A DNA stretch of 16,930 nt, taken from the IMG/VR virus record IMGVR_UViG_3300000279_000019; one strand, 5' to 3'. The notes beneath the pieces are model-generated. The model was not told the origin of the DNA. It was given only the letters and a program-made list of their open reading frames with translations, and searched no databases. The DNA is from a virus (taxonomy: Duplodnaviria; Heunggongvirae; Uroviricota; Caudoviricetes). This document shows, piece after piece, positions 1 through 16,930 of this stretch (position 1 is its first letter; every line of letters starts with the position of its first letter). Made by a program: the position numbers and the translations under genes.

Positions 1-42
1 CTCTTTTGGCTTGGCAGTGTCTATTTGACGGGCATTGAGTTT
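1..42. repeat. Terminal direct repeat, copy 1 (identical to 16889-16930)
   Basis: ctcttttggcttggcagtgtctatttgacgggcattgagttt occurs at both window ends; on the minus strand it encodes KLNARQIDTAKPKE, i.e. integrase codons 2-15. Confidence 0.9.
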
Positions 43-45
43 CAC
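1..45 (-). other. int: 5' end of integrase gene (GTG start at 45..43 plus codons 2-15), contiguous with 16930 only if the molecule is circular
   Basis: Reverse complement of 1-45 reads GTG AAA CTC AAT GCC CGT CAA ATA GAC ACT GCC AAG CCA AAA GAG, preceded in frame by a TAG stop; the same codons precede the integrase body at the right end. Confidence 0.5.
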
Positions 46-298
46 TTGGGGGTATCTCCACTAAACTGAACAGCAAATCCCCTCAATTGCTTGTAGAGTT
101 TGGGGTACTTAAATAGACGTCAAAAGACTAAAAGGGGCATTAATATACTGATTATAAGAGGTTTTTAAATACTTGAGTAGACTTGGGGAGACGTTAGAAT
201 GGTGCGATAATAGGAACAAAACATAAACAAAAAATACATTGATATTTAATGATATTTTCATATTTCATTTTTATAGATACCCCCAAAAGTACCCCCAA
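46..298. repeat. Cluster of 11-12 bp GGGGGTA-type repeats in direct and inverted orientation; candidate integrase arm-type sites (attP region) or int promoter/operator
   Basis: TTGGGGGTATCT at 46-57 and its exact reverse complement AGATACCCCCAA at 275-286; TTTGGGGTACTT at 99-110 and near-inverse AGTACCCCCAA at 288-298; CTTGGGGAG at 182-190. Lies immediately upstream of the int start codon in the circular reading. Confidence 0.4.
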
Positions 299-956
299 TA
301 AATTTTCCCTTATCCCAAACCAGGCAAAAATCGACTATCTAGCACTCTTTTTCTTCGAGCCTCAGCCTCACCGGCAGGCAATGATGAAGGGCTGGTGGAT
401 GCCCAAGGATAACCACTAGCGTGAAGTATTTTTTATTTCGCGGGTGTGAAAATTTGACGAGGTGGGTAGTCACGAACAACTGGGTTACAGAGATTATACC
501 CGCCACCACCTATGTTAATGAGGGCAATTATTAGTTGATATACCCACGCTCGTTTTCGCTTAATAGCAGAGCGTGCACAAAATTCACATATTTCCGTCTG
601 CATTCATCTATCGACACAGAAATTCGAGATAGTGGATATGATGAAACAAATCAGTGCTGACATGTGAACATGTTTTCCCTACAAAAATGACTTAAAGCAG
701 TCCATGATTCGGATCTGAAACGCATAAGTTATGGCAGGAATCTTGTTGCACATGGATTACATGTCAATAGCAAGCACGTCTCTGAATGAAGCGTAATTTA
801 ACGCAGATATTATTGAAGCTGCTTAAGCTCATACAGATAAAATTGATAAAAAAATATAAATGCTCAACCTATCTCAAACAACGAGATGAATTAATAGCTT
901 GATGGGCAATAAAATATATAAATAAAAAACACAACATTTAATATTGTAAGACTATG

Positions 957-986
957 AGCAAGGGTGTTGATAATAACACCCTTGCT
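957..986 (-). terminator. Strong stem-loop immediately 3' of the 532-aa ORF (terminator-like, no clean U-tract)
   Basis: agcaagggtgtt / gataat loop / aacacccttgct: perfect 12-bp inverted repeat starting 4 nt after the stop codon at 990-992. Confidence 0.4.
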
Positions 987-989
987 TAA

Positions 990-2588
990 TTACCAATTAA
1001 AAATATAATCTTTTATTTTAAGATACATATCAACTTTCCCAGACCATTTTGATGCACTCTCTTTCATCTTTTCAATAACATCATCAATCAGTAAGTCTCT
1101 TCCTTTTACAATCAATTGATCATCATCAATACCCTCTGGTGCAAATTCATATATGTGCATGCTTAGATTAGACTTCTGAGTATGAGGGAATGAATCTTTT
1201 TCCACACACATATCAATAAACTCATTAATAGATAGTTCTTTCTGTTTACACATCATAAGTAATAATTCGAACTCATCAATTGTTATATAGTAAATTCTTT
1301 TTAGATCAATGGGGATACTATGATATTTTTCAGATAACTCAGTTGATAAATCAGGGTTAATAAAATCCTGCACAACCATTGCATTTGATATATGATGATC
1401 CCGATGCACCACAATTAACATTGAATCTTTCGAAGATGGTTTTCTCATCTCTATTTTATTTAAGTTAAAAGCACATTCCTGACCTTGATAAATCCCTTTA
1501 ATAAAACTCTTATTCAACCTTTCCTTTAGCAACTGAGCATTATTAGATGTTTTAACGAACTTTGCAGGCTCTATTGCCTTCGAGTCAATATAAACTATTG
1601 AATCTCCCTCTGAAATAACAAAATCTACGGACTTGCAATTTTTTATTGCATTATCACTATAAATCCTCTTAACCTCCCTTTCAGTCTTAAAGTTATAATT
1701 GTACTTATCAAGAAAGCGAGAAATATAAAGTTCCATCGTCTTACCAAATTTTTCTTTATAAGATTCCTTATAGACCTGCTTGAACAATTCTGGAACTAGG
1801 TTGACAAACCCTGACTTCATGATTCTTTTGCATAATATCACTACACCATCGCCATCTAAAAACATTGGTTTACTGAGGAATGGTGTATCTTCATAATACT
1901 CAGCGGTAATGTTTTTATCCAATTTATATGGGGCAATAAAATCTCTCACACCATCAATTTTTAAGCATGTTAATTCCAAAAATCTTTTCACTTGTTCCGG
2001 ACCAAATATCGGAACCAAGTTTATTATCAAGTGTTTAAATGGAATAACCTCTGATTCTATATCAGGATTAATACATGAAATAGCGGTAAAATAACATGCC
2101 ATTTTGTAATAGTTTTCCAAATGTAAACCAGTACATTCTAAAAACTTATCTTTATAATATGATTCATCATTCAAGCAATACCAAATATACTGTCTTGTTA
2201 ATGAATTGGCATTAAATTTATCAGTTGATTGATAAAGCAACTGATTTATCACCATTCGTCTAAGGCTTAGCATAACTTTATCATCAACGATTAAATTAGA
2301 TGCTTCTAGTTGCAAGTTATAGATTAAGTTGATAATATCAACAAAATCATTTTTACTCATTTCTTTTGCAGGCTTTTTTTCCTTCATGCAAAACTTCCAT
2401 TTCATTGCCAGATAGCAACACCAAGGGAAATTGGAAACAATACCCACCTCGACATCCCTTACTTTTTGGAAGTGTTCATAAAAATTTCTCAAAAAAGAAA
2501 CATCACTAAAATATGACAATCTTTTCTTAATCGCATCAACTTTTATAGAATATGACACTGGTGTCATTGTTTTTATTGCCACGCTCAT
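990..2588 (-). CDS. Hypothetical 532-aa protein, AT-rich cargo gene, no family recognised; possible PD-(D/E)xK-like motif
   Basis: Longest ORF in the window with ATG start and AAGG about 8 nt upstream; K/N/I/Y-rich composition from AT-rich DNA, in contrast to the roughly balanced backbone; segment VDFVISEGDSIVYIDSK resembles a D...(D/E)xK nuclease core; no Walker A motif seen. Confidence 0.75.
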   Translation of the reverse strand: MSVAIKTMTPVSYSIKVDAIKKRLSYFSDVSFLRNFYEHFQKVRDVEVGIVSNFPWCCYLAMKWKFCMKEKKPAKEMSKNDFVDIINLIYNLQLEASNLIVDDKVMLSLRRMVINQLLYQSTDKFNANSLTRQYIWYCLNDESYYKDKFLECTGLHLENYYKMACYFTAISCINPDIESEVIPFKHLIINLVPIFGPEQVKRFLELTCLKIDGVRDFIAPYKLDKNITAEYYEDTPFLSKPMFLDGDGVVILCKRIMKSGFVNLVPELFKQVYKESYKEKFGKTMELYISRFLDKYNYNFKTEREVKRIYSDNAIKNCKSVDFVISEGDSIVYIDSKAIEPAKFVKTSNNAQLLKERLNKSFIKGIYQGQECAFNLNKIEMRKPSSKDSMLIVVHRDHHISNAMVVQDFINPDLSTELSEKYHSIPIDLKRIYYITIDEFELLLMMCKQKELSINEFIDMCVEKDSFPHTQKSNLSMHIYEFAPEGIDDDQLIVKGRDLLIDDVIEKMKESASKWSGKVDMYLKIKDYIFNW

Positions 2589-3193
2589 AAAAAACCTTTT
2601 ATGATAAACATAGAGAAATATTTTATTTAAAAATTATCAAATACACGTTAATAAATATACATTTTTTAATTTTGCGTGCAACCCTATCCCCAATCAATAC
2701 AAAATATTGTGCACACAAAATTGAAGAAGCCTATAACTATAGGTGCCTACTGACACCTATCAAGAAACTTGTTCACCCCCGACACAATTTAATTTGGCGT
2801 AGCTCACAATGTTCTCCTCAGCACACCTACCCCCCACTTTATAGGACAGTTTTCATGCAGTACATGCATAAACAAAAGCTCATCAGTTCTGGTGGTTCCT
2901 CACCACGAACATGCAGATAATACCTCAAAACATCATGTAACAATGTTGGCATTACGCCACCAGCCACAAAAAAGCCCTACCCTTAGGCTTAATGTTTGGC
3001 TTGGCTGTTGGCTTACTATAACGCCCCGCTCACCGTCGCAGCCTGTTCGGTTTCCGCCACTGATACGGCCTCACATCATCATGCTGATAGATGTCGACGG
3101 GCTACCAGTACCATTTGCTCACCAACCCCATATTTTCCATGTTAATCTTCTCTTTCCACATGCTTTGTATGGTAATAAGCAAAAGGAAAAATG

Positions 3194-3448
3194 ATGAACA
3201 CTAAGGTGAAAGAAGCAGTAAAATGTTGGGCTTCTAGTCCAACGTGGTTTAGCAGGCATCCAATGGATACGGCGGAGTTCCGACGGGCTGTTTCAAATCT
3301 CAAGCGCATTACCCCTACCCCATCTTTCGAAGAAATCAAAGAAGCGATCATGTTCTTTGTTTCCGATGCGCCAACAATGCTAGGTACGCCGTCGGATATT
3401 CCTCAGGCGGTTCATGACTTCGCTGGAAAAATTTATAACAAGCTGTGA
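3194..3448 (+). CDS. Hypothetical small protein (84 aa)
   Basis: AAGGA at 3183-3187 with 6-nt spacer to ATG 3194 (an ATG at 3191 is also possible); TGA at 3446-3448; followed by a hairpin terminator. Only confident plus-strand gene in the left half. Confidence 0.55.
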   Translation: MNTKVKEAVKCWASSPTWFSRHPMDTAEFRRAVSNLKRITPTPSFEEIKEAIMFFVSDAPTMLGTPSDIPQAVHDFAGKIYNKL

Positions 3449-3454
3449 GCAAAA

Positions 3455-3475
3455 TGCGGGCTATCCCAGCCCGCA
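3455..3475. terminator. Bidirectional hairpin between convergent genes
   Basis: tgcgggct / atccc / agcccgca, an 8-bp GC-rich stem; A-run on the plus side gives a T-run after the hairpin for the minus-strand transcript. Confidence 0.5.
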
Positions 3476-3482: not shown

Positions 3483-3665
3483 TTAACGCCGTAACTTGTT
3501 TGGCTTCGTCCATTGGTACGCCTTTTCGTTTTCCCGCCGCTGGTGGCGTTCCTGTTGCAGCACAACGGAAACAGGCGCTGAACACCTGTTAATTTTGCTT
3601 GCTGGTTGTTTGATTCCGGCAATGCTGCGGATCATCTCCAGCATATCGGCTTCGGTGATGGTCAT
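3483..3665 (-). CDS. Hypothetical small protein (60 aa), downstream partner of the 193-aa membrane protein
   Basis: ATG at 3665 preceded by AGGAAA with a 4-nt spacer (sequence taggaaacctATG); earlier in-frame ATGs at 3692 and 3686 lack an SD. Product MTITEADMLEMIRS..., basic C-terminus. Confidence 0.45.
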   Translation of the reverse strand: MTITEADMLEMIRSIAGIKQPASKINRCSAPVSVVLQQERHQRRENEKAYQWTKPNKLRR

Positions 3666-3714
3666 AGGTTTCCTATCAGCACTCATATCCAATTAATAAG
3701 TTCAATACAATGGA

Positions 3715-4296
3715 TTATCCCGTTTTAGTGACTAACCATTGCAGAATAACGATAATTAAATATGTTAATGTGCCAGTTCCAAGAAGTATTAATAATTGAT
3801 AGCAACGTAGGGCAATATTACTAATCGATTTTTGCATCACGATATTCACTGGCTCAGCCACACACTCTTTAGATCTTATCGATAGAATACTTGGAACTTC
3901 TCTATTTATTGATAATATTTCACATTGAATAGACTCACCAGGTGCAAGGCTTTCAAACTTGATAATATAGCGACCATCCTGTTCAATATTTTCTTCAAAA
4001 TGGTGGACAGGCCAAAAATTAATATGCATTGGCTTATAGTTAAAAACCAATGAGATATTAGTAGCACTTTCTCGCCCTTCATTAACAAGAATAATAGATC
4101 GTGTATACACCAACTGTGAATTAGATATTACCTCACCATTGGCATTCCGTAAGGGTTCATTGAGAAGAAAAGTAAATCCATGCTGATAACCATAGGATAA
4201 CTTTGCCTTGCTTTTAAATCTGTTATTCAGTATCCATGTTAAAATCGTTATAAAAAAAGAAAATAGTTCTTTCCCATAAAGACTAAAAAAACTCAT
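3715..4296 (-). CDS. Hypothetical membrane protein (193 aa) with N- and C-terminal hydrophobic helices, AT-rich cargo
   Basis: GAAGGA SD 6 nt before ATG 4296 (GTG at 4299 also in frame); hydrophobic stretches FSFFITILTWIL and LLILLGTGTLTYLIIVILQWLV flank a roughly 140-aa soluble domain; AT-rich like the 532-aa gene. Confidence 0.65.
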   Translation of the reverse strand: MSFFSLYGKELFSFFITILTWILNNRFKSKAKLSYGYQHGFTFLLNEPLRNANGEVISNSQLVYTRSIILVNEGRESATNISLVFNYKPMHINFWPVHHFEENIEQDGRYIIKFESLAPGESIQCEILSINREVPSILSIRSKECVAEPVNIVMQKSISNIALRCYQLLILLGTGTLTYLIIVILQWLVTKTG

Positions 4297-4430
4297 CACA
4301 CATTTCCTTCAGTAATCTGATTCTGCTGTCAAAGCTACCAGCACTATAGTCATTCATCCACATTGCGACAAGAAGGTTACAGCACGTCCAATCACACCTT
4401 AGGAAATCTTAGGGGGCTGGTTGACACTTT

Positions 4431-4687
4431 CCGGCTTAAGACCTTAATAAATCTTAATATCGCAGGTTGACACACTTGACACTTTTTCGCGAAAAACCTT
4501 AGCATTTCTAAGCATGGCAACTTGACATTTTTCGCGGTTTTTTCGGCTTTTTGACGTGGTAAATCTGGCACAAACCCAGTAATTGCGGGGCTTACAGCGA
4601 GGTTGACACTTTTTCGCGTTCAGAGTGTAAAGTGTCAACCTGGCAAGCTGTCAACCTGGCAAGCTGGCAAGCTGCTCAACTTGACAC
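4431..4687. repeat. Array of TTGACAC(TTTTTCGCG) repeats with a tandem 16-bp repeat; candidate binding-site array (packaging recognition or regulation)
   Basis: TTGACAC at 4431, 4467, 4476, 4603, 4681; TTGACATTTTTCGCG at 4522; TTGACG at 4551; inverted GTGTCAA at 4633; tandem gtcaacctggcaagct at 4634-4649 and 4650-4665 plus a partial third copy. No credible ORF spans it. Confidence 0.6.
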
Positions 4688-4696
4688 TTTTTGATG

Positions 4697-5224
4697 TCAT
4701 TGATGGTCTGATTTTTCCCACTCAGCCAGGGCGTTTAACCCGGCTTCACTCCATGATTCCGGTTCATCGGGATAATCACCTGCAACATAGCAGAGTTCGC
4801 AACGCAGCATACGAATTGCCAGCCTGGCATTACCTCGCAAATTGTATTTTTCAAAGTAATGCTGCCCTTCATCATCCTCAAGGCAGATAGCACCATCATC
4901 AAGAAAGTGCACTTCCCAGCCTAATTCCCCGGCTGCATACAGCACACGCTGCTGTATGCCCTCGTCCGTTACTGGCGCAGGAATTTTACCGTCTCTGGCC
5001 TTAACTGCTTTCCAGAACTCGCCCCATGTCATTTCCAGCGTTCTTTCTGGCCACATTTCAGAAATGGTGCCTTTCCCCTGTGCTGGTGGGCTGTTCCGCT
5101 GCTCTGTCGCTTCCACATCAATTTTTTTACCGGACATGACCACTTCGCCTTTCTCGAGCCAGTCGTAAACTGTCTGGCGGCTTACGCCTTTGTATTTGGC
5201 GTATTCGGCTTTACTCATCAACAT
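4697..5224 (-). CDS. DNA-binding protein with N-terminal lambda Nu1-like (terminase small subunit-type) winged HTH; possible packaging-redirection or regulatory protein
   Basis: GAGGTGA SD 5 nt upstream of ATG 5224; N-terminus SKAEYAKYKGVSRQTVYDWLEKGEV closely parallels Nu1 KKQLADIFGASIRTIQNWQEQGMPV; acidic C-terminal half. Confidence 0.55.
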   Translation of the reverse strand: MLMSKAEYAKYKGVSRQTVYDWLEKGEVVMSGKKIDVEATEQRNSPPAQGKGTISEMWPERTLEMTWGEFWKAVKARDGKIPAPVTDEGIQQRVLYAAGELGWEVHFLDDGAICLEDDEGQHYFEKYNLRGNARLAIRMLRCELCYVAGDYPDEPESWSEAGLNALAEWEKSDHQ

Positions 5225-5323: not shown

Positions 5324-5596
5324 TCAGTTGCGCCAGGATGGCTGGCTAAGCGTGGTTTTCATTACATCATTGACGACCTGTTTTACGATTTCTGTGTTGG
5401 CAGTCGTGCTTTCAACATCAACAAAGCCATAATCGCCAATTTCCACCGTCAGGGATTCCAGTTTCTTCCCTAGAGCATCAGGCAACTCTCCACTGAACCG
5501 ATGCTGAAGATTTTCCACCAGCAACGCCCTGAATGCCTCGCTGTTCTCTTTTTTCTGCCATAGCTGGCGTTTATCCACTCTGATATTTAATTTCAC
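5324..5596 (-). CDS. Hypothetical protein (90 aa)
   Basis: GTG start with AGAGGTGA SD 5 nt upstream; GTGA overlap with the stop of the upstream 55-aa ORF (translational coupling). Confidence 0.5.
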   Translation of the reverse strand: MKLNIRVDKRQLWQKKENSEAFRALLVENLQHRFSGELPDALGKKLESLTVEIGDYGFVDVESTTANTEIVKQVVNDVMKTTLSQPSWRN

Positions 5597-5760
5597 AGTC
5601 TCACCTCTTTAAGTGCCTTATCCATCAGTTGCCGAGCGATAACATGAATCGACGGTGCCACACCAAGCACAGATTTCTGACGCTCTTCGTCCTGGATGCG
5701 TTGCAGGGCTTCGATCTGCCTCCGGGAAAGTAAAACTGGCTTTACTCCGTGATTTTTCAT
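5593..5760 (-). CDS. Small putative DNA-binding protein (55 aa), Arc/ribbon-helix-helix-like guess
   Basis: ATG at 5760 preceded by AGGGA; product MKNHGVKPVLLSRRQIEALQRIQDEERQK...; the longer 107-aa version upstream is Cys/Asn-rich and looks spurious. Confidence 0.5.
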   Translation of the reverse strand: MKNHGVKPVLLSRRQIEALQRIQDEERQKSVLGVAPSIHVIARQLMDKALKEVRL

Positions 5761-6038: not shown

Positions 6039-6362
6039 TTATTTCATCAGATTTTTCATTATTTGCGCGATTGAGTACACAAGCAAAAACTCGGCAGCCG
6101 CAAGAGTATAAAAAACATAAATTCGCTTAGCCCACCGACGATGAAAGAACTCCTCAGCATGGCCGGATGTTCGAGATACAAGCCATGCACCTACTGCACA
6201 CAGAGCAGGTGCAATGAGCACAGTTATAAACCAGATTGTGATGCCCATCCCATGCCTACTGATAATAGCCATTGGTATTGCAAAAATGAATGTTAGAGCA
6301 GCATTAGCTAATAGAATATCTTTTAAAGTATTTTCAATTAGTTTTGCTAGATTATCTTTCAT
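6039..6362 (-). CDS. Small inner-membrane protein (107 aa, about 3 predicted TM helices)
   Basis: ATG 6362 with GGGGGA SD; hydrophobic segments LLANAALTFIFAIPMAII, ITIWFITVLIAPALCAVGAWLV, IYVFYTLAAAEFLLVYSIA. Confidence 0.65.
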   Translation of the reverse strand: MKDNLAKLIENTLKDILLANAALTFIFAIPMAIISRHGMGITIWFITVLIAPALCAVGAWLVSRTSGHAEEFFHRRWAKRIYVFYTLAAAEFLLVYSIAQIMKNLMK

Positions 6363-7703: not shown

Positions 7704-7991
7704 TTACTGACTACAATTGTTCTTTTTTTGGTATTTCCTGAATGCCTCACCATTGGGCTGATGTAATCCCATCCCGGCATGTGCCCGGCTGATGGTTTCG
7801 CGCATCTCCCCGAAATTATCCTGCCTTGCTGGTGGGCGTGCTGCCTTGTGGATACATTCCGCGCGACGTTTTGCCGCCTGTTCCCGTGCCTTGTCATCAT
7901 TCGCCAGCATGATGACCTCAGCCCACCGCGCCGCCGCTCTCCGGTACAGACCACGCGCTTCCAGTGCTTCCGCTTTGCTGTCGTGAATCAT
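7704..7991 (-). CDS. PerC-like small transcriptional regulator (95 aa)
   Basis: ATG 7991, 4-nt overlap with the FinO-like gene stop; segment AEALEARGLYRRAAARW and C-terminal MGLHQPNGEAFRKYQKK resemble what I recall of the PerC/Pch family; assignment from memory only. Confidence 0.5.
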   Translation of the reverse strand: MIHDSKAEALEARGLYRRAAARWAEVIMLANDDKAREQAAKRRAECIHKAARPPARQDNFGEMRETISRAHAGMGLHQPNGEAFRKYQKKNNCSQ

Positions 7992-8530: not shown

Positions 8531-8539
8531 CGTTACAAC

Positions 8540-8874
8540 TGTCTACCAACTGTCTACCGATATAATTGATTGATTTATTTAATGTTATTAACACATAACA
8601 AAAAAACAATCTGCAAACTGTCTACCAACGGTCTACCGCATTAATACATTGATAATTAATGATTTTTACTAAATGGTAGACAGTGTAGACAGTTAAAAGA
8701 GAAATTTAAAAAATGCCCCCTTAACTATCTGTTTTTTATATACCCCCCGTGGTTTAGGAATATAGAAATAACTGTCTACCTCTCTACCACATTGAAAATA
8801 TCTTTATAATTCAAAATATTAATTGGTAGATGGTTGGTAGAGGGTTAAGTGAATCTGTCTACCAACCGTCTACC
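8540..8874. repeat. Origin of replication: iteron array of (T)GTCTACC octamers in both orientations with an AT-rich spacer
   Basis: TGTCTACC at 8540, 8551, 8619, 8773, 8856; GTCTACC at 8631, 8868; inverted GGTAGACA/GTAGACA at 8675, 8685; GGTAGA at 8825, 8836; pairs spaced 11 bp; AT-rich block 8560-8615; lies directly 3' of the primase gene. Confidence 0.7.
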
Positions 8875-10707: not shown

Positions 10708-10994
10708 TTCTTACCTCCCGCAACCAACATTGCCCGGATTTTTTTAATATTCGTGGCTGCACGTCTCGCCACTGCCTGTTGTTTGTTTTCCACCAGAATA
10801 AAATCACGCTCAAACTGACGGCGCGGCATTACGCAGTCATATTCGTAAGCCTCACGGCGGTAGGTGATATTGCCTGGCGTAACGTGACGAATAACCACTC
10901 GTCCCCCACGTCTGGTGTCGCGGTAAATATCTCCGTGTCTGATTTCAGGCCGAGAGAGACCGCTGGCAGTAAAGCCAGAATTTTTCCTTTTCAT
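10704..10994 (-). CDS. Hypothetical basic protein (96 aa), last small ORF before primase
   Basis: ATG 10994 with AGGAAAA SD; stop overlaps the primase GTG (GTGA coupling); Arg/Lys-rich. Confidence 0.5.
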   Translation of the reverse strand: MKRKNSGFTASGLSRPEIRHGDIYRDTRRGGRVVIRHVTPGNITYRREAYEYDCVMPRRQFERDFILVENKQQAVARRAATNIKKIRAMLVAGGKK

Positions 10995-10998: not shown

Positions 10999-11199
10999 TT
11001 ATTTTCCTGTCAGCAGTTCCGGTTTTATTTCTGCACGAATACAGAGTTCAGAAAAAAATTCAGGAGAACCCACAATCTCATTACTTTTCAGTCGGCATTG
11101 TGATTTCACTTTTTCTTTATCAAGGTAAACCAGCACGCGTCCGGTGAAATCATCTGGCACATTAAGCACTACGGGTACATGCGCTTCATGATTATGCAT
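10999..11199 (-). CDS. Hypothetical protein (66 aa)
   Basis: ATG 11199 with GGAGGA SD; 8-nt overlap with upstream ORF. Confidence 0.45.
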   Translation of the reverse strand: MHNHEAHVPVVLNVPDDFTGRVLVYLDKEKVKSQCRLKSNEIVGSPEFFSELCIRAEIKPELLTGK

Positions 11200-11425
11200 G
11201 GCTTACATCCTCCAGAGATTTTCTTCTGTAACGCGTCTCTGCCACATATTCAGCATAGTCCGACGCAATACTAAGAATCATTTCACCCTCTGACTTGTAG
11301 CCACTGGTATTGATAAGAAAATATGCAGCTTTCATCATGTCAGCAATGCTCAACAATGCGCCCGATGTATCTTCCGGTGCGCCATCAAACTCCTGTTTCA
11401 GGGAATTAAAACGATCATCACGCAT
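11192..11425 (-). CDS. Hypothetical acidic protein (77 aa)
   Basis: ATG 11425 preceded by a G-rich SD; overlaps neighbours on both sides. Confidence 0.5.
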   Translation of the reverse strand: MRDDRFNSLKQEFDGAPEDTSGALLSIADMMKAAYFLINTSGYKSEGEMILSIASDYAEYVAETRYRRKSLEDVSHA

Positions 11426-11783
11426 GTTTACCCCCCTGAATGACCTGATAACCGCAACTGGTCAGCAATTCGATAAATTCCGGCAGTGTGCCGAAACAGC
11501 AATCATCACGCAGACGTTCGCAGGATACTTCAACGCCGTTTTCGTAGTGACTCACCATACACCCGGTAAAATGCAGATCATCATCGTGATGGCACGTTGA
11601 CGGCTTAATCAGTCGCGCACGTTCCGCCAGTTCCAGCAATGCTTCAACGCTTCCGGCAATTGCACCATCCGGCAGGTGATAATTACTTACCACGCGTCCA
11701 TTCTCCACGTTGACCAGTAGCTGCCCGGAAAATATCTCGTCAAACTGAATGCTGTTAAGGTCAGAAATTGACAGGTTATGCAT
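11418..11783 (-). CDS. Hypothetical protein (121 aa)
   Basis: ATG 11783 with AGGAGG SD 6-7 nt upstream (the track ORF starts further up at 11801 without an SD); product MHNLSISDLNSIQFDE... Confidence 0.55.
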   Translation of the reverse strand: MHNLSISDLNSIQFDEIFSGQLLVNVENGRVVSNYHLPDGAIAGSVEALLELAERARLIKPSTCHHDDDLHFTGCMVSHYENGVEVSCERLRDDCCFGTLPEFIELLTSCGYQVIQGGKHA

Positions 11784-12000
11784 GGTGCACCTCCTGTACA
11801 TCAGCCATGATAATTTTTCCGGCCTTATCCAGTGCCTGATCGGCTTTCAGCTGCACAAATGCTAAATAATGGGAGATGCATTCTGATTCTCTGGCTGCGT
11901 GTTTATGCGCCACACCAGCGATAGCAGAAATCTCAATAAGTGAATCCATCAGCGTTTTGATAGCGTCTACCGCTGCATCAGGCCATGTTGCATTACACAT
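11776..12000 (-). CDS. Hypothetical protein (74 aa)
   Basis: ATG 12000 in an ATGTGTAA overlap with the upstream gene stop; coupled to the next gene by ATGCATAA. Confidence 0.5.
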   Translation of the reverse strand: MCNATWPDAAVDAIKTLMDSLIEISAIAGVAHKHAARESECISHYLAFVQLKADQALDKAGKIIMADVQEVHHA

Positions 12001-12358
12001 GCTCCACCTCCTGGCGAATACGGGCAGCGAATACCATCACGCAGCCATCAGGAGATTGCTGGCGTGCTTCCTGTTCGCTGGTGGCCTCGATGTGAATCAC
12101 GCGCGGTTGTGCCGTACTCAGGGCGATAAAACGCCAGATAAAATTGTTTTCGCATTTCTGAATAAACAACGTGTTTTCTTCGCGCCCTTTCCATGTTGCC
12201 GAGATATAGCCCATGTCATTGAGCATCTCGCAGGCATCAACCAGCGTATCGGCGGCTACATGAACAGTGTTTTTACCGTCAGCCATGCAATCACGGTGCA
12301 CCGCCAGGAAGGTGTATATAAATTTAGGGTGAGTTTGGGTATGCTGTGCCCCAGCCAT
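11993..12358 (-). CDS. Hypothetical protein (121 aa), first gene of the replication operon
   Basis: ATG 12358 with GAGGT SD about 5 nt upstream, located at the C-terminal end of a 512-aa open frame whose upstream part I consider spurious; product MAGAQHTQTHPKFIYTFLAVHRD... Confidence 0.5.
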   Translation of the reverse strand: MAGAQHTQTHPKFIYTFLAVHRDCMADGKNTVHVAADTLVDACEMLNDMGYISATWKGREENTLFIQKCENNFIWRFIALSTAQPRVIHIEATSEQEARQQSPDGCVMVFAARIRQEVEHV

Positions 12359-12447: not shown

Positions 12448-12523
12448 TGTGATTTAAATTAAATTTAACTGAATCACAGGTCAAGTATTTTTTGTGATTC
12501 TTTTTTGTGTATACTGAATCACA
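12448..12523. promoter_or_regulatory. Two dyad-symmetric operators TGTGATT-N17-AATCACA in the divergent promoter region
   Basis: TGTGATT 12448-12454 / AATCACA 12472-12478 and TGTGATT 12493-12499 / AATCACA 12517-12523, 45 bp centre to centre; TATACT -10-like hexamer at 12510-12515; sits between the divergent RHH-like gene and the replication operon. Confidence 0.55.
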
Positions 12524-12545
12524 TCTTTTGTTTAGGAGAATGCAC

Positions 12546-12851
12546 ATGGCAAAAAACACTATCAACGACAAATCAAAACAGATTTCAATTCGTATCCCAC
12601 ATGATGCTTTTGAAGGCATGGAATCCGTAAAACTGGACGGCGAAAGCAACGCCGGATTCATAGTAACCGCCATGCGTGGTGAGATCGCCCGCCGCCAGGC
12701 AGAAGGAAGCGGAGAAAATCCCCTAGTTTCTTCGCTCAATGCACTGGCGCAGGTGGAAAAAATCGGAGTCAAAGCTGTCGAGGAGATCGGGCAGCTCGTC
12801 ACCGTCGCACGTGAAGAACTCCAGCGCCGCAAGGCCAAAGAATCAGAATAA
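12546..12851 (+). CDS. Putative ribbon-helix-helix-type transcriptional regulator (101 aa), candidate master repressor of the element
   Basis: AGGAG SD 8 nt upstream of ATG 12546; N-terminal KQISIRIPHDAFEGM resembles an RHH beta-strand/helix start; only plus-strand gene here, divergent from the replication operon and adjacent to the dyad operators. Confidence 0.55.
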   Translation: MAKNTINDKSKQISIRIPHDAFEGMESVKLDGESNAGFIVTAMRGEIARRQAEGSGENPLVSSLNALAQVEKIGVKAVEEIGQLVTVAREELQRRKAKESE

Positions 12852-13523
12852 TAACTATCATCGCCGTGGTGTGAGGAACTCCGGCGCATTGCTTTACAGG
12901 TACACAGAATGACCAACAAAGAATCGACCAATACACCATCACCGGCACGGAAAAGACAGCGCAGAAAGATAGCGTACGAATATGAGTCAGACAGATTCGC
13001 GCCCTGTGCGTTTATCCTTGAGAAATTCCTTAAAGAGTACAGGCGCACAAAAATGGGGTCGCATACCTGGAAAACATCGCGGCATGGCAATGTTAAAGAG
13101 CAGGAATAGCCCACCAGCAAGCCAGCACACTGATCACATTGCCCACCAGCCGCAAATCTGGCATTGTTGGCGATGTGTTCAAGTGTGTAGCTTTCCCACT
13201 GGTGGCCCTCTGCGGTCGCCTTTGTTTTATCCAGAACGAAATTAGACATCAGATTGATCATCACCTTGCGACCTGACAAAATCGCATCAGTCGCGCCACC
13301 AGCAAAATTTTTTGCTTTCCGGACAGCGTGACCAACGACATTTTGCAGCAAAATATTCTGCATTTCTGGCGTGCTGTAGTAACGGTGATCAGCGCCTTCA
13401 CTCTGTGCGACCACAACGCTATAATCTGCCTCGTAGACAGTAAGCAATATGGCGCAGTAGGCTATTCGTTCACAAAGGCGCTCCGGCAACGGGGCGCTTT
13501 CTCTTTTTGTAACGGTCAGAGCG

Positions 13524-14372
13524 TTACACATGGCTGTTTTCCTCCATGCGACGGGCTAACCAACGCTGCGAAAGACGAATTAATTCAGCTTTCCGCTGGT
13601 GGTAGTCCAGGCCTAACTCAATCAGCGTGATATTGCTCTGCTCAAGGTAAGAAAGGTGCTCAAGCTGCAACGTGCTCATGTGGTCGCGTGGTTCGCCTGT
13701 GATGCCGTTCGCCTGCGTCCACTGTTTTGCAGTCATGCCACCCAGCACGATACGCGCCAGCATATTGGCTTCCGTGGTGTAGTGGTGCTGGAGTGTGTTT
13801 TTACCCAGTTCAGCCCGGTACGCCTCCAGCGCGGCACACATCGGCTTAAAGTAGCTGGCAACGGAGATACGGGCTTTCAGTTCCCGGCGTAACGCTGCGG
13901 AACGCACTGGCGCTACCTTGTGTAGCTCCTCCTCGCATTTGATGAAGTACTGACGAACGGCGCGGCCCTGTTCGGTGCGCTCGACCATCGCCAGTTCTTT
14001 CGCCATGTTCGTGGAGATCAAATAGTCTTCACTGCGACGATCACCGCCGCGCTTTGTTGTCCAATCAAAATCAAACTGTTCAATATTTACACTTTGGTTC
14101 CCCCGTTTCGGGGAATCAAAGTACAAATTATCTACAACTTCAAAATCCACGCCCTTTTTAAATCCGTACTCATCAATGCGTCCTTTAATCCAGGTTGTGA
14201 AATCACGCTTCACACCCAGCGCCTTATGCAACGCTCTGGCGCTAACAATATTGGTTTCACGTCCGCCAATAACGCCGGAAATAACCGGGATAATTTCGCC
14301 GAAATTTTGCAGATTCTGGTTTTCAGGCCGAACGAAGCCCTGCCCCTGTACGGGCGTTTTTCGCTGTTTCAT
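13524..14372 (-). CDS. AntA/AntB-type antirepressor-like protein (282 aa)
   Basis: ATG 14372 with AGGAG SD; segment IIPVISGVIGGRETNIVSARALHKALGVKRDFTTWIKGRIDEYGFKKGVDFEV and later MAKELAMVERTEQGRAVRQYFIKCEE match the AntA-family pattern as I recall it. Confidence 0.65.
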   Translation of the reverse strand: MKQRKTPVQGQGFVRPENQNLQNFGEIIPVISGVIGGRETNIVSARALHKALGVKRDFTTWIKGRIDEYGFKKGVDFEVVDNLYFDSPKRGNQSVNIEQFDFDWTTKRGGDRRSEDYLISTNMAKELAMVERTEQGRAVRQYFIKCEEELHKVAPVRSAALRRELKARISVASYFKPMCAALEAYRAELGKNTLQHHYTTEANMLARIVLGGMTAKQWTQANGITGEPRDHMSTLQLEHLSYLEQSNITLIELGLDYHQRKAELIRLSQRWLARRMEENSHV

Positions 14373-14450: not shown

Positions 14451-14648
14451 TCAGGTAGCTGTTCCGCGTGATTCCGCAATACGCTGATTAATCCACTCGT
14501 CAATTTCACTCTCAACGAAAGCAATAGCTCGCGAGCCAATTTTAACTGATGCAGGAAATTTACCTTGCCCCATAAGGCGATAAATCCATGCCTTGCTATA
14601 TCCAGTTCTACGCTGAACTTCCGTTAAACGAATAAGAGAGTTTGCCAT
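14451..14648 (-). CDS. alpA: AlpA-family regulator / excisionase (65 aa)
   Basis: AAGGTGA SD; LIRLTEVQRRTGYSKAWIYRLMGQGKFP...VESEIDEWINQR aligns with E. coli AlpA ILRLPAVIQKTGMARATIYDWL...IEAEIDEWLSQR. Confidence 0.8.
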   Translation of the reverse strand: MANSLIRLTEVQRRTGYSKAWIYRLMGQGKFPASVKIGSRAIAFVESEIDEWINQRIAESRGTAT

Positions 14649-14850
14649 ATATTCACCTTGTAACGTCTATAAAGGTGTACATAGCTTGCATTAAGAAAAG
14701 TGATATTTATAGATGCTTACCATTATGAATGGCGAATACCATTTCAGTGAAATAGCTCCACCTTTTTTTAATAATGGCGTTTACTATTTTAAGTATCATG
14801 CTGACGTGAAACACGAAGAAAAATTACTGTTCTTACGATTTAATCTGCAT

Positions 14851-14888
14851 TGGTGGTTACTTTTTTTTGAAAGGAAACCACCATTTTT
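14851..14888 (+). terminator. Hairpin plus T-run on the plus strand in the alpA / 238-aa intergenic region
   Basis: tggtggtt / 17-nt loop / aaccacca followed by TTTTTCTGG; no credible plus-strand CDS upstream; a possible sigma70-like promoter TTGCAT...TATAGA lies near 14680-14715. Confidence 0.35.
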
Positions 14889-14903
14889 CTGGAATAGCGA
14901 CCA

Positions 14904-15620
14904 CTATTTAACTTTTTGTTTTTTTGGTCTTCTACCAATACGCTTCAGATGTTCAGGCCTTAAAATCAGATTCACAGCCCTAGCAACATTAGAACCCGCC
15001 CCCCTTTTTTTCAAATATTCAAGTACCTCATGCTCTGTCGGAGCCGTCTGTGGGTCATCTGGGTCATACGTCGACCATAGTTCTCTTATAGCATCCTGCA
15101 CATACTCCAACCCATCACTCTTATGCCCATAAGTACACAAATACTCGTCAGGATTAATTACCTGATGAGATGATTCAATGATTGCTGGCGGATTAACTTC
15201 CTTAACAGGTATAGGGCGAGGGCATCTCGCAAAATCAACGCTCTCATTTTTTATCCACTCATATAAAGAATGGCGACTAATTAAAGTTTTATCCTTGCTT
15301 ATCTCATATGCACGATCGGTCAGTTGCGCTGATGTCAGACGTTTGTACTCAATATCACAAACATTTCCCCAATTATCGTATTCAACTATTTCAGAGGTAC
15401 ATTCAACAGGAGTTAAGACACCACGACGGATGGCTGTTACCATTCCATTAGCCAACCCCCATGCCATTTTCCAACGTTCATGTTTATTATCTCTGACATG
15501 TTCAAGAGTAGGGTAATCATAAGGATCAATTCCGGCCAACAATAAAGCGGCCTGGGTGATAGAAAACTCCTGTACTGTTCGCCAGTGGGATAAGTCAGGA
15601 ATGTTTTCCACAATTGGCAT
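14904..15620 (-). CDS. Hypothetical protein (238 aa) between int and alpA
   Basis: ATG 15620 with GGGGGAG SD (the track M at 15635 is a TTG codon); basic C-terminal tail RIGRRPKKQKVK; no family recognised. Confidence 0.6.
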   Translation of the reverse strand: MPIVENIPDLSHWRTVQEFSITQAALLLAGIDPYDYPTLEHVRDNKHERWKMAWGLANGMVTAIRRGVLTPVECTSEIVEYDNWGNVCDIEYKRLTSAQLTDRAYEISKDKTLISRHSLYEWIKNESVDFARCPRPIPVKEVNPPAIIESSHQVINPDEYLCTYGHKSDGLEYVQDAIRELWSTYDPDDPQTAPTEHEVLEYLKKRGAGSNVARAVNLILRPEHLKRIGRRPKKQKVK

Positions 15621-15718
15621 ATTCTCCCCCTTCAAGCGGTCTAATGTTAAGGCCGAGCCAGCTCTGTTTGCATCAGCCTTTTTAGGTGCTCAAAGTCTAC
15701 TACTGTATACTCAACCAG

Positions 15719-16930
15719 TCACCCGCATTTTCCGAACTCACCATGCACCACATTTCCGCCATGCTCGAGCGAATCCATATAGTCGGCATACCACTGGAGC
15801 ATCTCCCGGCGACCATCCAGATATTGCGCATGGTTGTATGTGCCACGAATTGAGTTTTTATCGACGTGTGCGAGCTGTGTCTCTATCCACGCGGTGTTAT
15901 AGCCCTGCTCATGCAAAATGGTGCTCATGGTGTGCCGGAATCCATGACCAGTAACCTTTCCGTTATAGCCGATGCGTTTAAATACTTGGTTTATGCTAGC
16001 CTCGCTCATTGTTTTCCTTGGATCATTACGGCCGGGAAACATAAGCGGATAATTGCCAGTTAATTCTTTAATCTGCCCAATAAGCGAAAGAGCCTGCTTA
16101 GACAAAGGCACCACATGAGGGCGACGCATTTTCATCCGTGAAGCAGGTATCTCCCAGATAGCCTTGTTGAGATCGATTTCATCCCATAATGCACCGCGCA
16201 GTTCGCCAGTCCGCAAACCGGTGATAATCAGTAGACGAGCCGCCATAACAACCAATGCACTTCCTGAGTAACTGGACAATGCCTTGAAAAAATCAGGTAA
16301 TTCTTTGGCTGTGAGGAAAGGATAATGATTAGATTCATGACCTTGCATCGCGCTGGTGAGATCCGGTGCAGGGTTATACTCAGCACGTCCAGTGACAATT
16401 GCATAGCGGAAAACTTCCCCGCATCGCTGCCTCACTTTTTTGGCTTTTTCGGTAGCACCGCGCCCCTCGATGCGCCGCAGCACATTCAGCAGTTCAAGTG
16501 GTTTGATTTCGGCGATTGGTTTTTTGCCAATGTAAGGGAACACATCTTTGTTGAAGGCTTCGAGGATGTCTGAAGCATAACCAGCAGACCATTTTTTTAA
16601 TTTGCTGCTGTGCCACTCAAGGGCAATATCTTTGAAGGTGCTGTTTAACTGCGTTTCCCGGGCAATCTTTTCCTCTCGTTTCGCTTCCATCGGATCGATA
16701 CCCCCAGCGATCCCCCTTTTAGCTTCTTCACGTTTTGCACGAGCATCAGCCAAGGTAACTTCAGGATACACACCTAGTGCTAACAGCTTCTCTTTACCAG
16801 CTACACGATATTTGAAGCGCCAATATTTTCCTCCACTAGGTTTTACCAAGAGATACAGACCACCACCATCAGCCAGCTTGTAAGCCTTCTCTTTTGGCTT
16901 GGCAGTGTCTATTTGACGGGCATTGAGTTT
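15719..16930 (-). CDS. int: Tyrosine integrase, P4-type (5' end runs off the window; start codon found at 45..43 in a circular reading)
   Basis: N-terminal KLNARQIDTAKPKEKAYKLADGGGLYLLVKPSGGKYWRFKYRVAGKEKLLALGVYPEVTLADAR is the conserved P4-integrase N-domain; C-terminal catalytic region with HGFRHT and LAHVD motifs and a tyrosine near the end; the track M at 16849 is an internal TTG. Confidence 0.9.
   Translation of the reverse strand, partial: KLNARQIDTAKPKEKAYKLADGGGLYLLVKPSGGKYWRFKYRVAGKEKLLALGVYPEVTLADARAKREEAKRGIAGGIDPMEAKREEKIARETQLNSTFKDIALEWHSSKLKKWSAGYASDILEAFNKDVFPYIGKKPIAEIKPLELLNVLRRIEGRGATEKAKKVRQRCGEVFRYAIVTGRAEYNPAPDLTSAMQGHESNHYPFLTAKELPDFFKALSSYSGSALVVMAARLLIITGLRTGELRGALWDEIDLNKAIWEIPASRMKMRRPHVVPLSKQALSLIGQIKELTGNYPLMFPGRNDPRKTMSEASINQVFKRIGYNGKVTGHGFRHTMSTILHEQGYNTAWIETQLAHVDKNSIRGTYNHAQYLDGRREMLQWYADYMDSLEHGGNVVHGEFGKCG
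16889..16930. repeat. Terminal direct repeat, copy 2 (identical to 1-42)
   Basis: Exact 42/42 identity with positions 1-42; repeat may extend beyond the window edge. Confidence 0.9.

What the first reader, a model, noticed from the sequence alone, without database searches (positions are those of the whole stretch)
1..16930. Satellite-like element without any virion structural or capsid-remodelling genes
I see integration, regulation, replication and a possible packaging-recognition module, but no capsid, scaffold, Sid/Psu-like, terminase large subunit or lysis genes. If the element is mobile it must rely entirely on a helper phage, with roughly a quarter of its length given to AT-rich cargo of unknown function.
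Basis: inference. Interest (0 to 1): 0.5.

Follow-up and report, generated by a model that had tools for sequence, protein, structure and literature searches.

The report
Capsid-less phage satellite carrying GapS1 defence
This is a 16.9-kb E. coli phage satellite (a phage-inducible chromosomal island) at the tRNA-Thr gene that has integration, control and replication genes but no virion genes, and carries an anti-phage defence gene; the type is already known, so it is a fairly ordinary find with one uncharacterised conserved module worth testing.

Summary
Pfam, PHROGs, NCBIfam and PADLOC scans of 34 ORFs, plus AlphaFold models of the two largest unassigned backbone proteins, found no capsid, scaffold, portal, protease, large terminase, lysis or Sid/Psu/Delta homologue.

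The element is a Gram-negative PICI.
- It is integrated at tRNA-Thr (thrW).
- It shares integrase (96%), AlpA (83%) and the att core with EcCIMP1, a PICI shown experimentally to be mobilised by a helper phage.
- It is syntenic with EcCICFT073 from alpA to PerC.
- It has an iteron origin just downstream of a D5-type primase-helicase.
- It has only three of the five SatelliteFinder PICI core components, so it is a 'Type C' PICI. That class is abundant, known and poorly characterised.

Two corrections.
- The window is shifted by about 200 bp. Its 42-bp terminal repeat is the 5' end of two integrase genes, not att.
- The AT-rich cargo is not all unknown. Its main gene is GapS1, a validated anti-phage defence, and it sits in a slot that holds other defence-like genes in sister elements.

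One new point: a 175-aa winged-helix protein is followed by an array of AAGTGTCAA repeats. This pairing is conserved in more than 80 satellite-sized contigs and occupies the position of rppA-cos in EcCICFT073. It is a candidate packaging-specificity module, not yet proven.

The parts
1..45 (-). 5' end of a truncated second integrase gene (int') belonging to the neighbouring degenerate MarR/vat island; not part of the element
   Evidence: Identical to codons 2-15 of the full integrase. In the 99.6% identical record, RefSeq annotates an Arm-DNA-binding pseudogene here.
46..205 (.). Upstream region of int'; duplicates the integrase-to-tRNA spacer of the element
   Evidence: Read side by side with L001 21220-21393.
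206..215 (.). attL core GATAATAGGA (reverse complement TCCTATTATC), a copy of the 3' end of tRNA-Thr; attR lies outside the window to the right
   Evidence: the core occurs once in the window. In L001 the two cores are 16,900 bp apart. In EcCIMP1 they are 19,963 bp apart, which is the published size.
990..2588 (-). GapS1 anti-phage defence protein (PD-(D/E)xK family), AT-rich cargo
   Evidence: NCBIfam NF047931, E 6e-132, 441 bits against a cut-off of 320. RefSeq gene name gapS1. Function taken from bioRxiv 10.1101/2023.03.28.534373.
3191..3448 (+). 85-aa hypothetical protein in the cargo region
   Evidence: Annotated in RefSeq relatives. No family hit apart from a marginal PHROG match.
3483..3692 (-). 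Small hypothetical protein (about 60 aa), weakly similar to the last gene of EcCICFT073
   Evidence: tblastn 30% identity, E 2e-5, to L006 20371-20652. phrog_1561 E 1e-5.
3715..4299 (-). 194-aa protein with hydrophobic N- and C-terminal segments (predicted membrane protein), accessory, function unknown
   Evidence: Translation. No hit in Pfam, PHROGs, NCBIfam or PADLOC. Present in only 5 of 80 related loci.
4300..4696 (-). Non-coding array of AAAGTGTCAACC repeats (copies at 4420, 4475, 4602, 4680; inverted copy at 4630), with the palindrome TTTTTCGCGAAAAA and 8/16-bp tandem repeats; candidate cis site for the adjacent winged-helix protein (packaging signal or operator)
   Evidence: The same motif is about 600-fold enriched downstream of homologous genes in 80 loci.
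4697..5224 (-). HTH-175: N-terminal winged-helix DNA-binding domain of the Xis / small-terminase (lambda Nu1) / Rpp class, plus an unmatched C-terminal alpha/beta domain; candidate packaging-specificity or regulatory protein
5324..5596 (-). 90-aa hypothetical protein
   Evidence: No family hit. Found in 14 of 80 related loci.
5593..5760 (-). 55-aa conserved small protein (inside ORF 5593-5916); travels with HTH-175
   Evidence: Found within 8 kb of HTH-175 homologues in 62 of 80 loci. 47% identical to a small gene after the primase of EcCIMP1.
6039..6362 (-). 107-aa predicted multi-pass membrane protein, accessory
   Evidence: Translation. No family hit. Found in 11 of 80 loci, always with the lipoprotein.
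6427..7569 (-). 380-aa lipoprotein (signal peptide with LTGC lipobox, two coiled-coil repeats, C-terminal alpha/beta domain); exported, so not a capsid-assembly factor; followed by a strong terminator at 6415-6393
7704..7991 (-). PerC-family transcriptional regulator
   Evidence: Pfam PF06069, E 1e-31. 52% identical to EcCICFT073 PerC and 48% to EcCIMP1 PerC.
7988..8530 (-). ProQ/FinO-family RNA-binding protein, in the slot where EcCICFT073 has an SSB
   Evidence: Pfam PF04352, E 2e-23. Comparison with L006.
8539..8874 (.). Replication origin: at least 10 CTGTCTACC iterons in both orientations around AT-rich DNA, directly downstream of the primase gene
   Evidence: 16 window-wide matches, 10 of them in this interval; 0 of 200 shuffles reach 16. 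The layout is as described for Gram-negative PICI origins (PMC6092414). The iteron sequence co-varies with the primase allele in related loci.
8902..10707 (-). Primase-helicase (Pri-Rep): D5_N, DUF5906 and Pox_D5 domains
   Evidence: Pfam. phrog_864 E 1e-156. 43% identical to EcCICFT073 Pri over its full length and 49% to the C-terminal part of P4 alpha.
10704..10994 (-). DUF4222 protein, conserved directly upstream of the primase
   Evidence: Pfam PF13973. 52% identical to the EcCICFT073 counterpart. Found in 57 of 80 loci.
10999..12000 (-). Four overlapping small early genes (66, 77, 127/121 and 74 aa), function unknown
   Evidence: phrog_340, 24341, 2512 and 5146, all of unknown function. 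Two have EcCICFT073 counterparts.
11993..12358 (-). Icd-like protein (121 aa); the rest of the 512-codon ORF 11993-13531 is most likely a shadow of the + strand genes
   Evidence: NF033153 and PHROG hits fall only in the last 50 residues.
12507..13109 (+). Divergently transcribed pair: YlcI/YnfO-family gene (to 12851) and a 66-aa gene (12909-13109), followed by + strand terminator-like hairpins at 13201 and 13475
   Evidence: phrog_6522 E 8e-57 and phrog_21027 E 6e-31, both full length. Terminators. The same pair occurs in EcCICFT073.
13524..14372 (-). AntA/AntB-type antirepressor
   Evidence: Pfam PF08346, E 8e-24. phrog_5817. 60% identical to the EcCIMP1 antirepressor.
14451..14648 (-). AlpA, the likely master activator of the island cycle
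   Evidence: Pfam PF05930, E 2e-19. 83% identical to EcCIMP1 AlpA, which is required for excision and transfer.
14904..15635 (-). Variable accessory gene (238-243 aa, no known family) in the int-alpA slot
   Evidence: No hits. Sister elements hold unrelated proteins of 265, 251, 340 and 143 aa in this slot.
15719..16930 (-). P4-type tyrosine integrase; its GTG start codon lies 1-3 nt beyond the window
   Evidence: Pfam Arm-DNA-bind_3, Phage_int_M and Phage_integrase. RefSeq CDS in L001. 96% identical to EcCIMP1 Int.

Best explanation
The element is a phage-inducible chromosomal island (PICI) of the Gram-negative, AlpA-controlled kind, about 16.9 kb, integrated in the 3' end of tRNA-Thr (thrW).

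Shown here by sequence:
- It carries only the integration, regulation and replication core: Int; AlpA, AntA and PerC; a D5-type primase-helicase with an iteron origin.
- It has no virion, capsid-size, large-terminase or lysis gene.
- Its distal AT-rich quarter is an exchangeable cargo slot that here holds the GapS1 defence gene.

Inferred from the experimentally studied relatives EcCICFT073 and EcCIMP1:
- A helper phage entering lytic growth switches on alpA.
- AlpA activates the leftward operon.
- Int excises the island at the GATAATAGGA core.
- Pri-Rep replicates it from the iterons into concatemers.
- The DNA is packed by the helper's own terminase into unmodified helper capsids, as multimers or by headful, and is released by helper lysis.

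My hypothesis for the recognition step: the conserved 175-aa winged-helix protein binds the AAAGTGTCAACC array just downstream of its gene and steers the helper terminase to island DNA. This would be the counterpart of RppA plus cos1 in EcCICFT073.

In the lysogenic state the cargo protects the host. GapS1 does this by capsid-triggered dormancy. The lipoprotein and membrane proteins may also contribute.
For: Chromosomal context and att site.

Core genes.

Origin: (16 iteron-like sites in the window, 10 of them in 8539-8874; 0 of 200 shuffles reach 16). It lies directly 3' of pri, as PMC6092414 describes.

Synteny and homology with EcCICFT073: AlpA 38%, YlcI pair, Icd-like, DUF4222 52%, Pri 43% over its full length, PerC 52%.

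Integration and control module shared with EcCIMP1: Int 96%, AlpA 83%, AntA 60%. The helper-dependent excision and transduction of EcCIMP1 are published. Its authors also found no capsid-morphogenesis or terminase genes.

Absence of structural genes.

Cargo exchange on a 95-99% identical backbone: GapS1; or two unknown proteins of 329 and 123 aa; or a DUF4747 pair; or methyltransferase + DUF262 + HEPN nuclease. This matches published immune hotspots at the 5' and 3' ends of PICIs (PMC11364771).

HTH-175 plus array:
- The motif occurs at 6.3 per kb in the 600 nt after the gene, against 0.01 per kb elsewhere, in 80 loci down to 38% protein identity.
- The DNA-binding domain is nearly invariant.
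- The motif stays constant while the origin iterons change with the primase allele.
- In EcCICFT073, exact lambda cosN sites flank rppA at the equivalent position.
- The fold class is shared with lambda TerS and RppC.
Against: No experiment exists for this element. Helper dependence is inferred from relatives that share only part of the gene set: EcCIMP1 has a different primase and late module, and EcCICFT073 has a different integrase and late module.

No lambda, P2 or P22 packaging sequence is present, and no phage in the collection shares the array. The helper and the packaging mode are therefore unknown.

The HTH-175 fold matches excisionases as well as it matches TerS or Rpp. The profile match to RppA covers only 32 columns at 30% probability. 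No viral protein matches the full length.

Some sister copies carry frameshifted primase or AntA genes, so decay occurs in this lineage.

By SatelliteFinder criteria the element has 3 of 5 PICI core components. The authors of that tool considered this class too ambiguous to call.
Confidence: 0.75

Rival explanations
1. It is a decaying, no longer mobile island: a former satellite or cryptic element now kept only as a chromosomal defence island at thrW.
For: The element sits in a tandem array next to a degenerate island with a truncated integrase. Sister copies have a frameshifted primase (H1) or AntA pseudogenes. Type C PICI-like clusters may be defective (PMC10085698). EcCIMP1 itself transduces at a very low rate.
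Against: In this window every backbone ORF is intact: Int, AlpA, AntA 282 aa, primase 601 aa. The iterons and both att cores are preserved. Copies 99.4-99.6% identical occur in a human urinary isolate and in an avian O78:H4 strain. The same backbone sits with and without the neighbouring vat island.
Confidence: 0.12
2. One of the unassigned proteins (55, 90, 66-127 or 243 aa) is a capsid-size or assembly-interference factor with no detectable relatives.
For: Known remodelling proteins are small and family-specific (my knowledge of the families). Examples are SaPI CpmB, P4 Sid (244 aa) and the recently described Rcm (PMC12409344 abstract). Nine ORFs here have no assigned function.
Against: There is no similarity to P4 Sid or Psu and no PHROG head or packaging family apart from the N-terminal HTH. 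The 243-aa gene lies in a slot that holds unrelated genes in sister elements. The small early ORFs lie upstream of the primase, not in the late region. EcCICFT073 is reported to use full-sized capsids.
Confidence: 0.15
3. HTH-175 and its repeat array are not a packaging device. They could be a transcriptional switch for the downstream cargo genes, a second excisionase/recombination directionality factor, or a partition-like system for the episomal form.
Against: Four to six sites spread over about 280 bp in a fixed forward/inverted/forward layout are conserved although the cargo behind them differs. The array is 4 kb from att. The position matches rppA-cos in EcCICFT073. The element otherwise lacks any packaging signal.
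Confidence: 0.4
4. It is a P4-like satellite or a capsid-forming PICI whose characteristic genes were missed.
For: The integrase, AlpA/Vis and helicase part of the primase are 37-49% identical to those of P4. The primase gene is 77% identical in DNA sequence to that of the cfPICI deposited as phage vB_KppS-Ant.
Against: There are no sid, psu, delta or epsilon homologues and no P2/P4 cos sequence. There is no capsid, portal, protease, connector, TerS or TerL as in vB_KppS-Ant.
Confidence: 0.02

Closest known systems
EcCIMP1 (E. coli MP1 PICI; Pick, Stadel & Raivio 2025, PMC11773190)
   Same: Same insertion site (tRNA-Thr between proA and the MarR/vat island), same att core and the same int' remnant next door. 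Integrase 96%, AlpA 83%, AntA 60%, PerC 48%, and the 55-aa small gene 47% identical. No recognisable capsid-morphogenesis or terminase genes. Same 'Type C' status.
   Different: EcCIMP1 is 19,963 bp. It has a TOPRIM/DUF927 primase and a late region with P22-like ejection-protein and DUF2824 genes shared with its helper Kapi1, plus a second alpA. It lacks HTH-175, the repeat array, the lipoprotein, ProQ and GapS1.
EcCICFT073 (prototype Gram-negative PICI; PMC6092414, PMC6739421)
   Same: Same order: int, alpA, divergent YlcI pair, Icd-like, small ORFs, DUF4222, primase, iteron origin, PerC, late genes, small last gene. Identity is 35-52%. A winged-helix protein next to a cis site lies at the distal end.
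   Different: EcCICFT073 sits at another site with a 25% identical integrase. It encodes capsid-like and head-decoration-like proteins and RppA, flanked by exact lambda cosN sites. The window has none of these and no lambda cosN. Instead it has ProQ, a lipoprotein, HTH-175 with its own repeats, an antirepressor and GapS1.
'Type C' PICI class of SatelliteFinder (de Sousa et al. 2023, PMC10085698)
   Same: Integrase, AlpA and primase-replicase are present. The capsid-morphogenesis and TerS components are not detected, and there are no forbidden tail, holin or portal genes.
   Different: That class is a bin defined by what is missing and also catches P4-like elements. This element is distinguished from P4 by the absence of sid, psu, delta and epsilon.
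Satellite phage P4
   Same: Tyrosine integrase of the same family, a Vis/AlpA-type regulator, an alpha-type helicase, an Icd-like region, a tRNA insertion site and a defence cargo slot near the packaging site.
   Different: No Sid/Psu capsid-size genes, no Delta or Epsilon, no P2-type cos. The origin lies directly after the primase gene.
Helper-embedded PICIs of Klebsiella (PMC10111431)
   Same: Homologues of HTH-175 (57% identity) with the same downstream repeats lie at the distal end of primase-bearing islands inserted in prophage late regions.
   Different: Those islands use a different, short integrase and insert into phage capsid or tail gene clusters rather than into a tRNA gene.

Membership tests
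PICI (Gram-negative, AlpA type) | Tyrosine integrase at one end and site-specific insertion flanked by direct repeats | tested here: met
   Integrase domains. GATAATAGGA cores at 206-215 and in tRNA-Thr.
PICI (Gram-negative, AlpA type) | alpA regulator downstream of int | tested here: met
   PF05930, E 2e-19, at 14451-14648. 83% identical to the functional EcCIMP1 AlpA.
PICI (Gram-negative, AlpA type) | Primase-replicase gene with an iteron origin immediately 3' of it | tested here: met
PICI (Gram-negative, AlpA type) | Mostly unidirectional transcription away from int | tested here: met
   All backbone genes are on the - strand except the small YlcI pair, which is also divergent in EcCICFT073.
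PICI (Gram-negative, AlpA type) | No phage tail, lysis, portal or connector genes | tested here: met
PICI (Gram-negative, AlpA type) | Capsid-morphogenesis component (SatelliteFinder core iv) | tested here: not met
   No hit in any library. EcCICFT073 has capsid-like and decoration-like genes at the corresponding place.
PICI (Gram-negative, AlpA type) | Small terminase or Rpp-type packaging component (core v) | tested here: inconclusive
   HTH-175: phrog_57 TerS match limited to residues 5-48. Fold class shared with TerS, RppC and Xis. hhalign against RppA gives 30% probability. No PDB sequence match.
PICI (Gram-negative, AlpA type) | Induction, replication and high-frequency transfer dependent on a helper phage | not testable with these tools
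   Shown only for the relatives EcCICFT073 and EcCIMP1.
P4-like satellite | psu-delta-sid operon and epsilon | tested here: not met
   tblastn of all window proteins against P4 at E <= 1 gave no match to these genes.
P4-like satellite | P2-type 19-nt cos | tested here: not met
   0 matches with up to 3 mismatches. The cos sequence was taken from memory.
Capsid-forming PICI | Own capsid, protease, portal, head-tail adaptor/connector, TerS and TerL | tested here: not met
   None detected. Contrast with vB_KppS-Ant, which has them all.
GapS1 anti-phage system (cargo gene) | Single protein matching the GapS1 family model above its curated cut-off | tested here: met
   NF047931, 441 bits against a cut-off of 320, covering profile positions 1-455 of 455.
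GapS1 anti-phage system (cargo gene) | Intact PD-(D/E)xK active site and protection against phage | not tested
Activity of E. coli homologues is published.

The most novel reading that the evidence does not exclude
The 175-aa winged-helix protein and the AAAGTGTCAACC repeat array that always follows its gene may form a previously undescribed packaging-specificity module. The module is present in at least 80 satellite-sized viral contigs, in 167 of 5,426 complete E. coli genomes, and in Klebsiella helper-embedded islands. It would explain how PICIs without capsid, TerS or Rpp genes ('Type C') get their DNA into helper capsids. The diverging C-terminal domain would track the terminase of different helpers.
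Probability: 0.35. Interest if true: 0.6.

Novelty: new member of a known kind. Interest (0 to 1): 0.35.

Why it matters
Thousands of 'Type C' PICI-like clusters in enterobacterial genomes are left unclassified because they lack the known hijacking genes. Only one of them, EcCIMP1, has been shown to move, and its packaging mechanism is unknown.

This element adds a clean, intact example. It combines the EcCIMP1 integration module with an EcCICFT073-like replication backbone, which illustrates modular exchange among satellites.

It also shows a satellite that depends on helper capsids while carrying GapS1, a defence triggered by phage capsid protein. That raises the question of how the helper avoids triggering it.

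The practical gain is a concrete, widely conserved candidate for the missing packaging step: a gene plus a cis site. Deletions and terminus mapping could test it directly.

Tried and rejected
- **The 42-bp terminal direct repeat as att.** Rejected: it is the 5' coding end of int and int'.
- **Known packaging sites.** Lambda cosN, P2/P4 cos and P22 pac (the last two taken from memory) gave no match.
- **Rfam on the whole window.** No match at E <= 0.1.
- **PDB sequence search.** Nothing meaningful for the 181-aa and 380-aa proteins.
- **tblastn of both proteins, and blastn of the repeat array, against 50,697 phage records.** No match.
- **Whole window against phages.** Only a primase match, to a record that is itself a cfPICI.
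- **ORF 11993-13531 (512 aa) as a large unassigned protein.**
  - Only its last 50 residues match a family (Icd-like).
  - Its middle is the exact in-phase complement of two + strand genes that have full-length PHROG matches and their own terminators.
  - I therefore treat it as a shadow ORF, although the frame stays open in diverged relatives.
- **The repeat array as a second, P4 crr-like set of replication iterons.** The window iteron and the array motif are similar, but this was rejected: iterons change with the primase allele while the array motif is constant.
- **An attP test in metagenome contigs.** Not attempted: the tandem junction in the window has the same sequence an attP would have.

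Full report
**What is in the window.** Nearly all long ORFs lie on the minus strand. Profile searches assign the following:
- a P4-type tyrosine integrase (15719 to the right end)
- AlpA (14451-14648)
- an AntA/AntB antirepressor (13524-14372)
- an Icd-like protein
- four small PHROG-only genes
- a DUF4222 protein
- a D5-type primase-helicase (8902-10707)
- a ProQ/FinO protein
- a PerC regulator
- GapS1 (990-2588)

There are no tRNA genes and no Rfam matches. Between the primase stop codon and the ProQ gene, 10 of the window's 16 CTGTCTACC-like sites lie within 336 bp, in both orientations, around AT-rich DNA. None of 200 shuffles reaches 16 sites. This is the origin layout described for Gram-negative PICIs (PMC6092414).

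**Where it sits and where it ends.** The window is 99.6% identical to a stretch of the E. coli K56-43-un chromosome and 99.4% identical to one in an avian O78:H4 strain. In those records the element lies next to tRNA-Thr (thrW) and proA. A MarR/vat island lies on its other side.

The perfect 42-bp repeat at the two window ends is the 5' coding end of the integrase and of a truncated second integrase that starts the neighbouring island. The start codon of the full integrase falls just outside the window.

The real junctions are a GATAATAGGA core at 206-215 and its partner inside tRNA-Thr, about 180 bp beyond the right end. In the near-identical record the two cores are 16,900 bp apart. The window is therefore the element shifted by about 200 bp.

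**The observation.** No ORF matches a capsid, scaffold, portal, protease, connector, tail, large terminase, holin or endolysin family. The libraries were Pfam, PHROGs, NCBIfam and PADLOC.

Against phage P4, only the integrase, Vis/AlpA and the helicase part of alpha match. Sid, Psu, Delta and Epsilon do not.

I modelled the two largest unassigned backbone proteins with alignments of homologues.

The 512-codon ORF at 11993-13531 is best read as a 121-aa Icd-like gene fused to a shadow of two plus-strand genes. Those genes have full-length PHROG matches and their own terminators.

One limit remains: small family-specific capsid-size factors cannot be excluded by homology.

**What it is.** The gene order matches EcCICFT073 with 35-52% protein identity: int, variable gene, alpA, antirepressor, divergent YlcI pair, Icd-like, small ORFs, DUF4222, primase, iteron origin, PerC, late genes, cargo.

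The integration and control end is nearly that of EcCIMP1, with Int 96%, AlpA 83% and the same att site. EcCIMP1 is excised and transduced only in the presence of phage Kapi1. It needs alpA and int for this. [quoted passage not shown]

By the SatelliteFinder definition a PICI has five core components: integrase, regulator, primase-replicase, capsid morphogenesis and TerS. This element has the first three, which makes it 'Type C'. That class holds more than 6,000 clusters, which the authors left unclassified. The EcCIMP1 authors place their element in the same class.

It is not P4-like. It is not a capsid-forming PICI, even though its primase gene is 77% identical in DNA sequence to that of a cfPICI deposited as 'phage vB_KppS-Ant'. 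That record carries capsid, portal, connector and both terminase genes.

**Cargo.** Positions 216-4299 are 35.8% GC against 46.4% for the rest, and make up 24% of the element. The main gene is GapS1 (441 bits against a cut-off of 320).

GapS1 is a single-protein PD-(D/E)xK defence. It is triggered by phage capsid protein and causes dormancy, and E. coli homologues have been shown to protect (bioRxiv 10.1101/2023.03.28.534373).

On backbones 95-99% identical, the same slot holds one of the following instead:
- two unknown proteins
- a DUF4747 pair
- a methyltransferase + DUF262 + HEPN-nuclease set

The int-alpA slot also holds unrelated genes in sister elements. Both positions are published PICI immune hotspots (PMC11364771).

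**The candidate packaging module.** Directly after the stop codon of the 175-aa gene lies a 400-bp non-coding stretch. It has five copies of AAAGTGTCAAC(C), four forward and one inverted, together with palindromes and short tandem repeats.

Homologues of the protein occur across Enterobacterales (103 clusters). In Enterobacter islands and Klebsiella helper-embedded islands the same motif follows the gene.

I examined 80 loci from IMG/VR, most of them on contigs of 10-20 kb.
- The 9-nt motif occurs 277 times in the 600 nt after the gene and 5 times in the other 840 kb.
- The layout is fixed: forward at +8, inverted at +30-60, then two to three forward copies.
- This holds down to 38% protein identity.

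The DNA-binding domain is nearly invariant while the C-terminal domain diverges. The origin iterons change with the primase allele while this motif does not, so the array belongs to the winged-helix protein and not to the replicase.

In EcCICFT073, two exact lambda cosN sites flank rppA at the equivalent position. RppA is the winged-helix protein that retargets the helper terminase (PMC6739421). Together this makes a packaging-specificity role plausible.

The evidence is positional and comparative only.
- The fold matches excisionases equally well.
- The profile match to RppA is limited to the helix-turn-helix.
- No known cos or pac sequence is present.
- No phage shares the array.

The module is found in 167 of 5,426 complete E. 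coli genomes, always on the chromosome.

**Mechanism, with status.**

*Shown by sequence:*
- site-specific insertion at thrW
- an intact integrase, AlpA, antirepressor and primase, plus the iteron origin
- no virion or lysis genes
- an exchangeable defence cargo

*Inferred from relatives:*
- the helper switches on alpA
- excision, then replication to concatemers
- packaging into unmodified helper capsids
- release by helper lysis

*Hypothesis:* HTH-175 bound to its array directs the helper terminase.

**Verdict.** The finding is real and correctly read, but it describes a known kind of element. I rate it as a new member of a known kind, interest 0.35. The residual value lies in the conserved, untested protein-plus-site module, and in the pairing of a capsid-dependent satellite with a capsid-sensing defence.

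Noticed in passing
window 1-215 and 16889-16930: The window ends in a perfect 42-bp direct repeat that is really the 5' end of two integrase genes in a tandem island array at thrW. Because the neighbour's integrase upstream region is a near copy, the attL junction in the window has the same sequence an excised attP would have. Junction PCR or read mapping could therefore be misread.
   Followed up: yes
window 11993-13555 (- strand); L006 11752-13050: A stop-free frame of 520 codons stays open in sister elements (520-536 codons) and in EcCICFT073 (433 codons, about 37% identity). Its middle is the in-phase complement of two + strand genes with strong PHROG matches. It is probably a shadow ORF, but the openness of the parts outside those two genes is not explained.
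   Followed up: partly
window 7988-8530: A ProQ/FinO-family RNA chaperone gene sits right after the origin, where EcCICFT073 has an SSB. This hints at RNA-based control in this island. No partner RNA was identified and Rfam gave no match.
   Followed up: no
window 6039-7569: A 380-aa lipoprotein and a 107-aa membrane protein form a pair followed by a strong terminator. The lipoprotein family is 60-99% conserved across many Enterobacterales genera but occurs in only 11 of 80 related loci. It may be a surface or exclusion function. The well-modelled C-terminal domain (residues about 200-380) remains unassigned.
   Followed up: partly
L009-L011 (Klebsiella), around 6500-9700 and 18700-20500: Klebsiella islands carrying the HTH-175 homologue lie inside prophage late regions. 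Between primase and HTH-175 they contain a second copy of Dit-like, Pam3_gp18-like and baseplate/spike-like genes that also occur in the adjacent prophage tail cluster. These may be satellites carrying tail-tip genes, or tandem prophage remnants.
   Followed up: no
L015 (LR881103.1, 'Escherichia phage vB_KppS-Ant'): A 16.5-kb record deposited as an induced prophage has integrase, primase, capsid, portal, connector, TerS and TerL but no tail or lysis genes. It is a capsid-forming PICI filed among phages.
   Followed up: partly
L018-L097, 450 nt after the primase genes: Origin iterons fall into discrete types that follow the primase allele: CTGTCTACC, CTGTTCACC (contains the TGTTCACC that I recall, from memory and not checked here, as the P4 type I origin repeat), ACGTCTACC, ATGAACACC and GGTATACAC. 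This is a ready-made set for studying replicase-origin specificity in satellites.
   Followed up: partly
window 13524-14372: The C-terminal part (residues 187-271) of the AntA antirepressor matches PADLOC candidate defence family PDC-S22 (E 2e-10). Sister copies of this gene are pseudogenes in two genomes.
   Followed up: no
window 990-2588: GapS1 is reported to be triggered by a phage major capsid protein, yet it rides on an element that needs helper capsids. Either the helper capsid is not sensed or expression is timed to avoid it.
   Followed up: no
H36 NZ_CP083263.1 about 1.99 Mb; H38 NZ_CP195143.1 about 1.40 Mb: Partial copies of the HTH-175 module lie at other chromosomal places, next to a DUF2213 gene or next to abgA. 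Up to four places occur per genome, so the module also travels on islands with other integration sites.
   Followed up: no
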